From Octopus sinensis (lineage: Eukaryota): 5,361 nt of DNA. The notes below the pieces were generated by a model. That model did no database searches. It had not been told where the DNA came from and saw only the letters and a program-made list of their open reading frames with translations. Each line of letters opens with the position of its first letter. The first letter of the stretch is position 1. Of the stretch, positions 1 to 5,050 are shown piece by piece. Made by a program: the position numbers and the translations under genes. The stretch is taken from positions 1-5,361 of the forward strand of contig NW_021830077.1 in the NCBI RefSeq assembly GCF_006345805.1, in the 5' to 3' direction.

Positions 1-11
1 AAAGTTAAATA

Positions 12-170
12 GACACTGGCATGGCTGTGTGGTAAGTAGCTTGCTTTCCAACCACATGGTTCTGGGTTCAGTCCCACTCCATGTCACCTTGGGCAAGTGT
101 CTTCCATAGCCTCAGGCTGACCAAAGCCTTGTGAGAGGATTTGGTAGACGGAAACTGAAGGAAGCCCATT
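12..170 (+). mobile_element. tRNA-derived SINE, 5' head only (3'-truncated), Octopus-type/CORE-like
   Basis: A-box-like TGGCTGTGTGG (22-32) and B-box-like GGGTTCAGTCCC (64-75) are followed by CACCTTGGGCAAGTGTCTT, which resembles the start of the CORE domain. The segment aligns closely with the reverse complement of ~708-856. Similarity stops at GAAGCCC (~167), where the other copy enters its microsatellite. Confidence 0.85.
22..75 (+). promoter_or_regulatory. RNA polymerase III internal promoter (A box and B box) of the SINE head
   Basis: TGGCTGTGTGG resembles the A-box consensus TGGCNNAGTGG. GGTTCAGTCCC resembles the B-box consensus GGTTCGANNCC. The two are ~31 nt apart. Confidence 0.65.
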
Positions 171-856: not shown

Positions 857-1089
857 TTTTCATTTTTAGCGGAATTATTTTAGCTAATTCATTTTTTAGC
901 GGAACAAACCTCAATTAGTATCACATCTGTGCCAAAATATCAAAAACTCCAGCGGATTTTTAAGTGCTACAGAAATATCCTTGTACTTCCAGCACTTAAG
1001 AGAGACTCTTACAGCTGATGGAAAAGTTATCCCTCCAAATAACATATTCAGCTTTTGAACATAAGTAAAAAAAAAACACTACTGTTTAA

Positions 1090-3087
1090 CCCTTTCGTTA
1101 CTGTATTTCTGTTGAGATGTTCTGTGTTTCTTTCAATTAATTTTAAATATAACAAAGAATTTAGTAAAATAACTTAGTTATCATTAAGCTAGTGTTAGGA
1201 ACATAAATTGTGACTGAGGTTTGGTGGAAGATTTTAATGCAAAACTTATGAAAACAAGACTTTTGTACCACCGAACTAGAGGCAGTTTCAGCCGGGTTGG
1301 TATCAAAAGGGCTAAGAATTGTTTCTCTATTATATATTTTAACCCTTTCATTACTGTATTTCTGTTGAGATGCTCTGTGTTTCTTTCAATTACTTTAAAT
1401 ATTAGAAAGAATTTAGTAAAATAACTTAGTTATCATTAAGCTAGTGTTAGGAACATAAATTGTGACTAAGGTTTGGTGGAAGATTTTAATGCAAAACTTA
1501 TGAAAACAAGACTTTTGTACCACCGAACTAGAGGCAGTTTCAGCCGGGTTGGTATCAAAAGGGTTAAGAATTGTTTCTCTATTATATATTTTAACCCTTT
1601 TGTTACCATATTTCTGTTGAGATGCTCTGTGTTTCTTTCAATTAATTTTAAATATAACAAAGAATTTAGTAAAATAACTTAATTATCATTAAGCTAGTGT
1701 TAGGAACATAAATTGTGACTGAGGTTGGGTGGAAGATTTTAATGCAAAACTTATGAAAACAAGACTTTTGTACCACCGAACTAGAGGCAGTTTCAGCAGC
1801 GGGTTGGTATCAAAAGGGCTAAGAATTGTTTCTCTATTATATATTTTATTTAACCCTTTCATTACTGTATTTCTGTTGAGATGCTCTGTGTTTTCTTTCA
1901 ATTACTTTAAATATTAGAAAGAATTTAGTAAAATACTTAGTTATCATTAAGCTAGTGTTGGAACATAAATTGTGACTAAGGTTTGGTGGAAGATTTTAAT
2001 GCAAAACTTATGAAAACAAGACTTTTGTACCACCGAACTAGAGGCAGTTTCAGCCGGGTTGGTATCAAAAGGGTTAAGAATTGTTTCTCTATTATATATT
2101 TTAACCCTTTTGTTACCATATTTCTGTTGAGATGCTCTGTGTTTCTTTCAATTAATTTTAAATATAACAAAGAATTTAGTAAAATAACTTAATTATCATT
2201 AAGCTAGTGTTAGGAACATAAATTGTGACTGAGGTTTGGTGGAAGATTTTAATGCAAAACTTATGAAAACAAGACTTTGTACCACCGAACTAGAGGCAGT
2301 TTCAGCCGGGTTGGTATCAAAAGGCTAAGAATTGTTTCTCTATTATATATTTTAAAAACCCTTTCATTACTGTATTTCTATTTCTGTTGAGATGCTCTGT
2401 GTTTCTTTCAATTACTTTAAATATTAGAAGAATTTAGTAAAATAACTTAGTTATCATTAAGCTAGTGTTAGGAACATAAATTGTGACTAAGGTTTGGTGG
2501 AAGATTTTAATAATAAACTTATGAAAAACAAGACTTTTGTACCACCGAACTAGAGGCAGTTTCAGCCGGGTTGGTATCAAAAGGTTAAGAATTGTTTCTC
2601 TATTATATATTTTAACCCTTTTGTTACCATATTTCTGTTGAGATGCTCTGTGTTTCTTTCAATTAATTTTAAATATAACAAAGAATTTAGTAAAATAACT
2701 TAATTATCATTAAGCTAGTGTTAGGAACATAAATTGTGACTGAGGTTTGGTGGAAGATTTTAATGCAAAACTTATGAAAACAAGACTTTTGTACCACCGA
2801 ACTAGAGGCAGTTTCAGCCGGGTTGGTATCAAAAGGGCTAAGAATTGTTTCTCTATTATATATTTTAACCCTTTCATTACTGTATTTCTGTTGAGATGCT
2901 CTGTGTTTCTTTCAATTACTTTAAATATTAGAAAGAATTTAGTAAAATACTTAGTTATCATTAAGCTAGTGTTAGGAACATAAATTGTGACTAAGGTTTG
3001 GTGGAAGATTTTAATGCAAAACTTATGAAAACAAGACTTTTGTACCACCGAACTAGAGGCAGTTTCAGCCGGGTTGGTATCAAAAGG
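1090..3087. mobile_element. piggyBac-like MITE copies 1-8 (homogeneous block, alternating A/B variants)
   Basis: Each unit starts CCCTTT just after a TTAA and ends TGGTATCAAAAGG(G) before TTAA or CTAA. The units are non-coding and AT-rich, and alternate units are nearly identical. Confidence 0.8.
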
Positions 3088-3118
3088 TTAAGAATTGTTT
3101 CTCTATTATATATTTTAA

Positions 3119-3338
3119 CCCTTTTGTTACCATATTTCTGTTGAGATGCTCTGTGTTCTTTCAATTATTTTAAATATAACAAAGAATTTAGTAAAATAAC
3201 TTAGTTATCATTAAGCTAGTGTTAGGAACATAAATTGTGACTAAGGTTTTGGTGGAAGATTTTAATTCAAACTTATGAAAACAAAACATTTTACCACAGA
3301 GCCCAGAAGCAGTTTCAGCCAGGCTGGTATCAAAAGGG
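3119..3338. mobile_element. piggyBac-like MITE copy 9 (both TIRs and both TTAA sites intact)
   Basis: TTAA at 3115-3118, then CCCTTTTGTTACCA ... TGGTATCAAAAGGG, then TTAA at 3339-3342. The TIR is 14 bp with one mismatch. TTAA target sites and CCC...GGG termini are established piggyBac hallmarks. Confidence 0.82.
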
Positions 3339-3361
3339 TTAAGAATTGTTTCTCTATTATA

Positions 3362-3688
3362 GATCCCTGGTCTGGTGGTTCGTAAAAAGCACTATCCGAC
3401 TCGTGGCCGATGCCAGCACCGCCTCGACTGGCTTCCGTGCCGGTGGCACATAAAATACACCAATCCGACCGTGGCCGTTGCCAGCCTCGCCTGGCACCTG
3501 CGCAGGTGGCACGTAAAAAGCACCCACTACACTTACGGAGTGGTTGGCGTTAGGAAGGGCATCCAGCTGTAGAAACATTGCCAGATTAGACTGGAGCCTG
3601 GTGCAGCCTTCTGGCTTCCCAGATCCCCGGTCGAACCGTCCAACCCGTGCTAGCATGGAGAACGGACGTTAAACGATGATGATGATGA
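3362..3688 (+). mobile_element. Non-LTR retroposon fragment (SINE or LINE 3' end, possibly RTE-associated), probably 5'-truncated, with (GAT)n tail
   Basis: A GC-rich block interrupts the spacer exactly: ...CTCTATTATA | insert | TATTTTAACCC. It ends with a stem-loop (3637-3668) followed by TTAAAC(GAT)5. No ORF of note is present. The clade assignment is inferred from the short-repeat tail. Confidence 0.75.
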
Positions 3689-3696
3689 TATTTTAA

Positions 3697-4288
3697 CCCT
3701 TTCTTTACCATATTTCTGTTGAGATGCTCTGTGTTTCTTTCCTTTACTTTAAATATAACAAAGAATTTAGTAAAATAACTTAGTTATAATTAAGCTAGTG
3801 TTAGGAACATAAATTGTGACTAAGGTTTGATGGAAGATTTTAATTCAAACTTCATGAAAACAAAACATTTTACCACAGAGCCCAGAAGCAGTTTCAGCCA
3901 GGCTGGTATCAAAAGGGTTAAGAATTGTTTCTCTATTATATATTTTAACCCTTTTGTTAGCATATTTCTGTTGAGATGCTCTGTGTTTCTTTCCTTTACT
4001 TTAAATATAACAAAGAATTTAGTAAAATAACTTTGTTATCATTAAGCTAGTATAAGGAACATAAATTGTGACTAAGGTTTGGTGGAAGATTTTAATTCTG
4101 AACTTATGAAAACAAGACATTTGTACTACAGAGCCAGAGGCGGTTTCAGCCAGGTTGGTATCAAAAGGGTTAAGAATTGTTTCTCTATTATATATTTTAA
4201 CCCTTTTGTTACCATATTTCTGTTGAGATGCTCTGTGTTTCTTTCAATTAATTATAAATATAACAAAGTATTTAGTAAAATAACTTAG
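3697..4288. mobile_element. piggyBac-like MITE copies 10, 11 and truncated 12 (more diverged)
   Basis: These units have the same TTAA/TIR/spacer layout. Copy 12 breaks off at ...AAAATAACTTAG (4288), where the microsatellite begins. Confidence 0.8.
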
Positions 4289-4468
4289 ATATATATGTAC
4301 ATAGTTGGATGAATGGATGGATGGAGAGAGACAGACAGACAGACAGAAGGGGAGAGGGAGATTAATAGATAGCTAGATAGAAAGAAAACAGACATACAGA
4401 TATACATACAGACAGACGGACAGCCAGACAAATAGATAGATATATAGATTAGATCGATAGTTAGATAG
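4289..4468. repeat. Degenerate (GGAT)/(GACA)/(GATA) simple-repeat region
   Basis: GGATGAATGGATGGATGG, GACAGACAGACA and GATA-like runs are visible. Confidence 0.8.
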
Positions 4469-4570
4469 ATACATAAATACATACATACATACATACATAC
4501 ATACATACATACATACATACATACATACATGCATACATACATACATACATACATACATACATACATACAT
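4469..4570. repeat. (TACA)n microsatellite
   Basis: About 25 near-perfect ACAT units. Confidence 0.95.
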
Positions 4571-4609
4571 TGACAGACAGACAGACAAAAGGATAAGTAA
4601 ATAGACAGA

Positions 4610-5050
<441 letters not shown>

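What the first reader, a model, noticed from the sequence alone, without database searches (positions are those of the whole stretch)
1086..4288. Satellite built from whole piggyBac-like MITEs separated by a fixed 23-bp TTAA-bounded spacer
Seen: every monomer is a complete TIR-to-TIR element (~221 bp, CCCTTTTGTTACCA...TGGTATCAAAAGGG) flanked by TTAA or CTAA, and the same 23-bp spacer joins neighbours. The array starts exactly at an element boundary (TTAA 1086-1089), and the upstream sequence (CACTACTGT) is not spacer. Known: piggyBac inserts at TTAA and has CCC/GGG termini. Simple tandem re-insertion would share one TTAA with no spacer. Inference: two copies landed in TTAA sites 23 bp apart, or one copy was duplicated with its flank, and unequal exchange or rolling-circle amplification then multiplied element plus host flank. 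This would be a MITE caught turning into satellite DNA.
Basis: partly seen in the sequence, partly recalled or inferred. Interest (0 to 1): 0.75.

Follow-up and report, generated by a model that had tools for sequence, protein, structure and literature searches.

The report
Transposon joint spreading between neighbouring copies
This short tandem array is built from a small, old piggyBac-type transposon, but its 23-base linker is not local DNA: it joins pairs and chains of the same transposon about a thousand times, in patches of chromosome that it shares out with rival linkers, and it likely spreads by being copied from one resident transposon into its neighbours.

Summary
The array is real: 11 whole ~221-bp elements plus a truncated twelfth, interrupted by a 327-bp SINE-like insert. 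The monomer is a non-autonomous piggyBac MITE: over 8,000 copies, mostly TTAA-flanked solos, with broken 2.6-kb transposase elements that share its termini. The TTAA-23bp-TTAA spacer occurs 1,085 times exactly, mostly in dimers and short arrays with unrelated flanks. Two other spacer families (12 and 90 bp) behave alike. On chromosomes C1 and C2 the 23- and 12-bp families hold nearly exclusive megabase territories. No two whole dimers are near-identical. Outer ends resemble solos, while sites within ~30 bp of the spacer are family-specific, and neighbouring loci share identical patches beside the spacer. Best reading (0.55): rare double insertions founded a few joints, ectopic gene conversion likely copied them into nearby resident copies, and unequal exchange expanded some locally. 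Main rival (0.3): dimers transposed as composite units and were scrambled later. The solo-to-dimer step is inferred, not shown. The longest array seen has 17 units, so this is not yet a satellite. Precedents are coral CMITE arrays and the spread of Rsp-like into 1.688 clusters in Drosophila.

The parts
883..1085 (+). Older dispersed repeat into which the array's first element inserted
   Evidence: 20 other copies at 77-88%. In 8 of 9 copies inspected the repeat continues past this point, mostly reading TTCAA (TTTAA in L227) then AGTAACCCC, with no element at the site; L230 leaves the repeat earlier.
1086..1089 (.). Outer TTAA target site at the array's 5' end
   Evidence: Sequence; single TTAA at the matching place in paralog L227
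1090..1311 (+). Monomer 1; keeps the CCCTTTCGTTAC end shared with the transposase-coding elements
1312..1342 (+). First joint: CTAA + 23-bp spacer + TTAA, a member of a genome-wide junction family
   Evidence: 1,085 exact matches of the TTAA form
1343..3087 (+). Monomers 2-8: young A/B higher-order dimer expansion (about 505-bp period)
   Evidence: substitution matrix
3119..3338 (+). Monomer 9; differs from m1-8 by 18-25 substitutions and shares a rare haplotype patch with arrays L003 and L009 elsewhere
3362..3688 (+). 327-bp dispersed SINE-like retroelement piece with a (GAT)n tail, inserted inside the spacer, no clear target duplication
   Evidence: hits in 90 of the 242 other loci searched, best 97.9% over 327 bp in L099; 'SINE' is my recalled label
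3697..4169 (+). Monomers 10 and 11 with one exact joint; diverged from m1-8
4201..4288 (+). Monomer 12, truncated after 88 bp; the array's 3' end and outer TTAA are not in the window
4289..5049 (.). Simple repeats (GATA, TACA, GACA) that replace the array's 3' end

Best explanation
The window holds a short tandem array of a non-autonomous piggyBac MITE whose copies are joined by one of a few genome-wide spacer modules, and these modules likely spread by ectopic gene conversion into resident copies nearby. Step 1 (shown): the MITE inserted at TTAA sites thousands of times. Step 2 (inferred): rare double insertions at TTAA sites 12, 23 or 90 bp apart trapped a piece of host DNA between two copies; a few one-off spacers and 13 spacer-less joints show that such founders arise. 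Step 3 (patch exchange between loci shown; solo-to-dimer step inferred): a break inside a resident copy is repaired from a nearby dimer, synthesis runs through the joint and switches back, so the resident becomes a dimer with its own outer ends and an imported joint. Repeated stepwise, this would give megabase territories for each spacer. Step 4 (inferred from the near-identical A/B dimers): unequal exchange expands some dimers into arrays of 3-17 units, as in this window, where a retroelement later split one spacer and the 3' end was lost.
For: Spacer count and dimer architecture with unique flanks; outer TTAA kept in 25 of 31 first and 26 of 30 last monomers, against 23 of 26 solos. Territories: on C2 all 32 exact 12-bp joints lie at 21.8-29.0 Mb, where none of the 71 exact 23-bp joints of C2 lies; 62 of those 71 lie at 186-207 of 208 Mb. 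The 40 scored of 151 candidates for the 90-bp spacer fall at the end of C18 (17), C26 0.8-5 Mb (18), C23 3.8-4.4 Mb (3) and two other places. In 20 loci of the 12-bp family, alleles next to the spacer are nearly fixed (position 20 C: 19 of 19 against 3 of 26 solos, p 6e-10), while the same site at the outer end (4 of 16) and mid-body sites 51 and 96 match solos. No whole dimer pair among 48 is closer than 4.3% at non-CpG sites. A dimer at C2 206.50 Mb has 0 of 101 differences from an oppositely oriented array 110 kb away in the half next to the spacer, but 4 of 102, 7 of 102 and 9 of 102 in the other halves. Three loci at C1 192-193 Mb share a 111-bp tract and a spacer variant but differ outside it. 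The two monomers of one dimer share 18 rare alleles (11 of 48 dimers) against 1.7 expected. Linkage of sites 51 and 180 in solos (p 0.005) is lost in multimer monomers. PMC3064801 (passages read) calls piggyBac's tendency to local hopping low. PMC7403614 (passages read) proposes this route for Rsp-like.
Against: No site was shown as solo in one genome and dimer in another: contigs broke inside the repeat. All patch sharing could be conversion between existing dimers. Inner ends are not robustly younger than outer ends once pattern-selected positions are removed (79 of 5032 against 68 of 5087, p 0.36; p 1.0 in the unselected subset). Outer-left and outer-right halves show no linkage (p 0.62), which a single-event model predicts. 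Across 62 arrays the proximity effect was not significant by permutation (p 0.05-0.86). Solos are not clearly depleted in territories (4 solo places against 11 multimers in about 420 kb chosen around known joints). Five loci show TTAA-spacer-TTAA with one element cleanly missing, which suggests transposase acted on dimers, so composite movement was possible.
Confidence: 0.55

Rival explanations
1. Composite transposition: founder dimers moved as single units by their outer ends (inner ends had decayed at CpG sites), hopped locally, and later gene conversion scrambled their bodies.
For: Outer ends keep TTAA and often the CCCTTTCGTTAC / GTAACGAAAGGG ends of the transposase elements while inner ends mostly differ; inner and outer parts are of similar age; five one-sided footprints fit precise excision of a monomer from a dimer, one of them already present in organism B, two studies.
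Against: No near-identical whole dimers; the four halves are mostly uncorrelated between loci (outer-outer 0.41-0.42 only); outer and mid-body alleles mirror the solo mix rather than one founder; piggyBac local hopping is reported as mild.
Confidence: 0.3
2. Circles of monomer plus spacer, looped out of arrays, reintegrate into resident solo copies by a single crossover.
For: It predicts the same chimeric first and last monomers and is discussed for Rsp-like in PMC7403614.
Against: Diffusible circles explain megabase territories poorly; imported patches are often far shorter than a full 252-bp unit.
Confidence: 0.12
3. One reading: two copies landed 23 bp apart here, and this locus alone amplified element plus its own host flank.
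For: The 5' end is a true insertion junction and local expansion occurred.
Against: The spacer has 1,085 exact matches, sits between elements at unrelated loci, does not resemble the host repeat that follows this TTAA in paralogs, and exists in organism C.
Confidence: 0.01
4. Assembly artefact from noisy long reads.
For: The window is a whole 5.4-kb unplaced contig, with homopolymer indels among monomers.
Against: Monomers carry consistent substitution haplotypes and an insert; the same joints lie on chromosomes and in contigs of other organisms. The exact unit number in this window was not checked with reads.
Confidence: 0.02

Closest known systems
Coral CMITE tandem arrays and CMITE-IN (PMC2872659; parts 1-3 of 4 of the text read, through the discussion)
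   Same: piggyBac-type MITEs with CCCTTT ends and TTAA sites that form tandem arrays of whole elements, including one with similar gaps between elements; a related TTAA-bounded unit with 23-bp extensions.
   Different: That paper saw a few arrays in shotgun reads and proposed slippage; it reports no shared spacer at hundreds of loci, no rival spacer families and no territories. Sequences were not compared with ours.
Double-insertion dimers that seed satellites in Drosophila, hobo array (PMC5932611; passages read)
   Same: Head-to-tail dimers of DNA transposons expand into arrays of about 16 copies with one fixed junction.
   Different: There the junction is one target duplication unique to one locus. 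Here spacer-less joints are rare (13 places) and spacer-bearing joints recur at hundreds of loci.
Spread of Rsp-like into 1.688 satellite clusters (PMC7403614; passages read)
   Same: A hybrid junction spreads to places where an abundant repeat already sits, by interlocus gene conversion or circle reintegration, then expands locally.
   Different: There two satellites are involved. Here the landing pads are dispersed solo transposon copies and the passenger is a 12-90-bp scrap of host DNA; several passengers hold separate territories.
Composite transposons such as Tn10 (recalled)
   Same: Two terminal elements flank captured DNA, outer ends intact and inner ends altered.
   Different: No clonal whole-unit copies were found here; the cargo is non-coding.

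Membership tests
piggyBac-type MITE | TTAA target duplication | tested here: met
   23 of 26 sampled solos have TTAA on the right, the left being part of the search pattern; paralog L227 of the window's flank has a single TTAA
piggyBac-type MITE | Short terminal inverted repeats beginning CCC | tested here: met
   CCCTTTCGTTAC / GTAACGAAAGGG as solo majority
piggyBac-type MITE | Autonomous partner with the same ends and a piggyBac transposase | tested here: met
   10 of 30 PF13843 loci carry this end; five are 2,557-2,623-bp elements bounded by it; 25 of 26 terminal bases match and subterminal likeness is 71-80%; L062 matches DDE_Tnp_1_7 and zf-Tnp_2. All five are broken; the direct parent was not found, only 116 of 1,780 candidates were scored.
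piggyBac-type MITE | Small, uniform size, high copy number | tested here: met
   208-224 bp in 26 solos; 8,162 exact left-end matches
piggyBac-type MITE | Mobilised in trans, with precise excision | tested here: inconclusive
   five one-sided TTAA-spacer-TTAA footprints fit it; no assay possible
Satellite DNA (classical) | Long arrays of hundreds or more units | tested here: not met
   48 of 69 fully bounded multimers are dimers, longest 17 units; 1,085 exact joints in the whole assembly. Collapsed arrays would not be seen.
Satellite DNA (classical) | Heterochromatic location | not testable with these tools
   no chromatin or cytology data
Double-insertion array (hobo type) | Junction sequence confined to one locus | tested here: not met
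Composite transposon | Outer ends and target duplication bound the whole unit | tested here: met
   also expected if a solo was converted in place
Composite transposon | Whole-unit copies related by descent at new sites | tested here: not met
   closest of 48 dimers differ by 4.3%, mean 8.2%; old age plus conversion could hide it
Junction spread by interlocus conversion (Rsp-like type) | Same junction at many loci with variable outer boundaries | tested here: met
Junction spread by interlocus conversion (Rsp-like type) | Identical patches shared by physically close loci | tested here: inconclusive
   clear cases but no significant overall distance effect
Junction spread by interlocus conversion (Rsp-like type) | Orthologous site lacks the junction but has the resident repeat | not testable with these tools
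   contigs broke inside the element

The most novel reading that the evidence does not exclude
Scraps of host DNA trapped between two dead transposon copies behave as selfish modules that need no transposase: they convert resident solo copies into dimers by homology-directed repair, spread stepwise along chromosomes, and exclude rival spacers from megabase territories. Each converted site becomes a seed for a tandem array, and the territories record the range of non-allelic gene conversion in the germ line.
Probability: 0.4. Interest if true: 0.7.

Novelty: new variant of a known kind. Interest (0 to 1): 0.45.

Why it matters
How transposons turn into tandem repeats is an open question. The usual model makes each array from its own double insertion. 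Here a few founder joints appear to have been multiplied to hundreds of loci, so seeds for arrays are copied rather than made anew. The spacers are natural lineage tags for non-allelic gene conversion among ~220-bp repeats, and their territories can be tested against Hi-C contacts and recombination maps. If composite transposition is the answer instead, it is a modest new case of a MITE dimer subfamily.

Tried and rejected
Laying contigs of four runs on dimer L143 to tell solo from dimer failed: flank contigs of organism B and organism E enter the element at both ends, then break. Laying four runs on footprint L049 showed the same flank-spacer join in organism B and no flank cover in organism C, so no polymorphism. 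An apparent 'inner ends are younger' signal (87 of 4585 against 53 of 4742, p 0.002) mostly came from how loci were picked and was dropped. The contrast between the 90-bp spacer (3.0% between 15 loci) and its monomers (9-11%) is inflated by picking top spacer hits, so it is not used as main evidence. The outer-outer distance correlation did not repeat. Distance-class permutation was not significant. No allelic copy of the window's flank was found. An unoccupied source site of the 23-bp spacer was not found among 28 places inspected out of 1,085 matches. Runs of same-orientation joints (20 same, 12 opposite, counted by eye) are within chance. The scan's earlier findings held nothing similar. 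Paper searches listed no report of shared spacer families or territories among MITE dimers; most were seen as listings only, and subscription journals, Dfam and Repbase were not searchable. No supplements were opened; the repeat library behind PMC13282606 may already hold this MITE.

Full report
OBSERVATION. The window is a whole unplaced contig of a 2.72-Gb animal genome; an octopus is my recalled guess from SINE likeness and was not tested. It holds 12 monomer starts from 1090 to 4201. Eleven monomers are complete (219-226 bp); the twelfth stops at 4288 and runs into simple repeats, with no right half downstream. Eight of 11 joints are 31 bp: TTAA or CTAA, the 23-bp spacer, TTAA. Two are 34-35 bp. 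One holds a 327-bp dispersed element with a (GAT)n tail that splits the spacer. Monomers 2-8 form a young A/B dimer series; monomers 9-11 differ from m1-8 by 18-31 substitutions.

THE MONOMER. A 32-letter left-end pattern has 8,162 exact matches, control 0. Of the first 30 loci, 26 held a complete monomer and all 26 were solos; 23 have TTAA on the right. Solos lie 5.4% from their majority sequence at non-CpG sites, so the family is old. Among the 30 best PF13843 loci (116 of 1,780 candidates scored), 10 carry the same end, and five are 2.56-2.62-kb elements bounded by TTAA and CCCTTTCGTTAC. They match up to 25 of the MITE's first 26 bases and 71-80% subterminally. L062 encodes DDE_Tnp_1_7 plus the C-terminal zinc finger; all five are broken. 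The window's left flank is an older repeat whose other copies continue past a single TTCAA or TTTAA, so the array's 5' end is a true insertion site. The monomer is a piggyBac-type MITE.

THE SPACER IS NOT LOCAL. TTAA-spacer-TTAA has 1,085 exact matches, control 0; the first 100 fall on 66 places (counted by eye). All 28 distinct places inspected have MITE sequence on at least one side, mostly as dimers with unrelated flanks. With the spacer left free (0-30 bases), 1,199 joints match; the first 100 rows are the 23-bp family, a 12-bp family and four one-off spacers. The 12-bp joint has 198 exact matches. A third, 90-bp spacer has 151 candidates. Joints that share one TTAA occur at 13 places only. 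Both short families are present in contigs of the more distant organism C. Of 69 fully bounded multimers, 48 are dimers, and the longest array seen has 17 units.

TERRITORIES. On C2, all 32 exact 12-bp joints lie at 21.8-29.0 Mb; the 71 exact 23-bp joints lie at 2.8 Mb (1), 30.9-35.7 (4), 68.9-69.4 (4) and 186-207 (62). On C1, all 17 exact 12-bp joints lie at 194.8-211.4 Mb; 23-bp joints lie at 112-117 and 210-212 Mb, with a variant at 192-193 Mb. The first 100 left-end matches already fill C1 8.5-49.9 Mb, where no joint was listed. The 40 scored 90-bp hits cluster at the end of C18, at C26 0.8-5 Mb and at C23 3.8-4.4 Mb. Positions beyond the first 100 rows of each search were not seen. In 210 kb of C2 near 206.5 Mb, 5 of 6 MITE places are dimers; in 200 kb of C1 near 39.3 Mb, about 10 places are all solos. 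Both stretches were chosen, not drawn at random.

HOW THE JOINT MOVED. Solos fall into two main end types. First monomers often have a solo-like left end and a family-type right end, last monomers the reverse, with switch points that differ by locus. In 20 loci of the 12-bp family, position 20 C is found in 19 of 19 monomers after the spacer, 4 of 16 outer ends and 3 of 26 solos; mid-body sites 51 and 96 match solos. The 23-bp set shows the same trend, weaker at the outer left end (8 of 14 carry 20 C). No two of 48 whole dimers are closer than 4.3%. Yet patches are shared: a dimer and an oppositely oriented array 110 kb apart have 0 of 101 differences in the half beside the spacer and 4-9 in each other half; three loci at C1 192-193 Mb share a 111-bp tract and a spacer variant; the window's monomers 9-10 share a rare patch with arrays L003 and L009. 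The two monomers of a dimer share 18 rare alleles against 1.7 expected. Exchange of patches between and within loci is therefore shown. That a solo becomes a dimer by the same route is inferred. Independent double insertions are too rare to supply the loci, and PMC3064801 (passages read) describes piggyBac's local hopping as low.

AGAINST THIS READING. Inner ends are not robustly younger than outer ends. Outer halves are not linked. The distance effect over 62 arrays is not significant. Five of the 47 distinct places show a spacer with one element cleanly gone, which fits transposase acting on dimers; one such join is shared with organism B. Outer ends keep the transposase elements' termini while inner ends are mostly altered. 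Old composite transposition followed by conversion therefore stays possible (0.3). The direct test, solo versus dimer at an orthologous site, failed because contigs break inside the element.

COMPARISON. Tandem arrays of whole piggyBac-type MITEs with gaps are described in corals (PMC2872659, parts 1-3 of 4 read). Dimers that expand into arrays are described in Drosophila, with a junction unique to one locus (PMC5932611, passages). Spread of a hybrid junction into resident repeats by interlocus conversion or circles is proposed for Rsp-like (PMC7403614, passages). Passages of a review (PMC9659126) and of an octopus repeat annotation (PMC13282606) showed nothing on such spacers. Seven searches listed no report of shared spacer families with territories; the library lacks most subscription journals, and Dfam and Repbase were not available.

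VERDICT. Real, and a piggyBac MITE array, but neither locus-born nor yet a satellite. The notable feature is genome-wide: a few spacer modules link MITE copies at hundreds of loci in separate megabase territories, most likely spread by gene conversion. New variant of a known kind; interest 0.45.

Noticed in passing
window 1-167 and 711-867; 293-564: Two SINE-like copies in inverted orientation around a (CA)n run, and a 137-bp tandem duplication of another SINE-like piece. The SINE label and a likeness to octopus SINEs are recalled, not tested.
   Followed up: no
window 883-1085 and L225-L233: A dispersed repeat of 500 bp or more with an internal hairpin (GTAACCCC...GGGGTTAC); type unknown. The site used here reads TTCAA in most copies and TTTAA in the window and L227, so a point change likely made the target.
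   Followed up: partly
L049, L050, L037, L058, L019 at the spacer: TTAA-spacer-TTAA beside one element only, with unique DNA on the other side; these would be left by precise loss of one monomer and resemble coral CMITE-IN.
   Followed up: partly
L039:1500 region: The 23-bp spacer follows the GGG end of a different TTAA element, not of this MITE.
   Followed up: no
L003 (C27 10.24 Mb) and L009 (C11013): Paralogous sites (flanks 95% and 91% alike) with the same insertion point; first monomers differ at 1 of the first 111 positions while inner monomers differ at 14-19 of 221.
   Followed up: partly
L066:222-3667: One piggyBac family (ends CCCTTTAGTGTT) is nested in an element with the MITE's ends; L065, L067 and L061 are 99% alike, so that family is younger.
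   Followed up: no
L234-L245: Spacer-less joints sharing one TTAA occur at only 13 scattered places; 7 of 9 inspected join two copies of this MITE. The perfect palindrome may keep them from spreading (inference).
   Followed up: partly
L141:7310 and L141:9092: Two dimers 1.8 kb apart are followed by the same 13 bases; unexplained.
   Followed up: no
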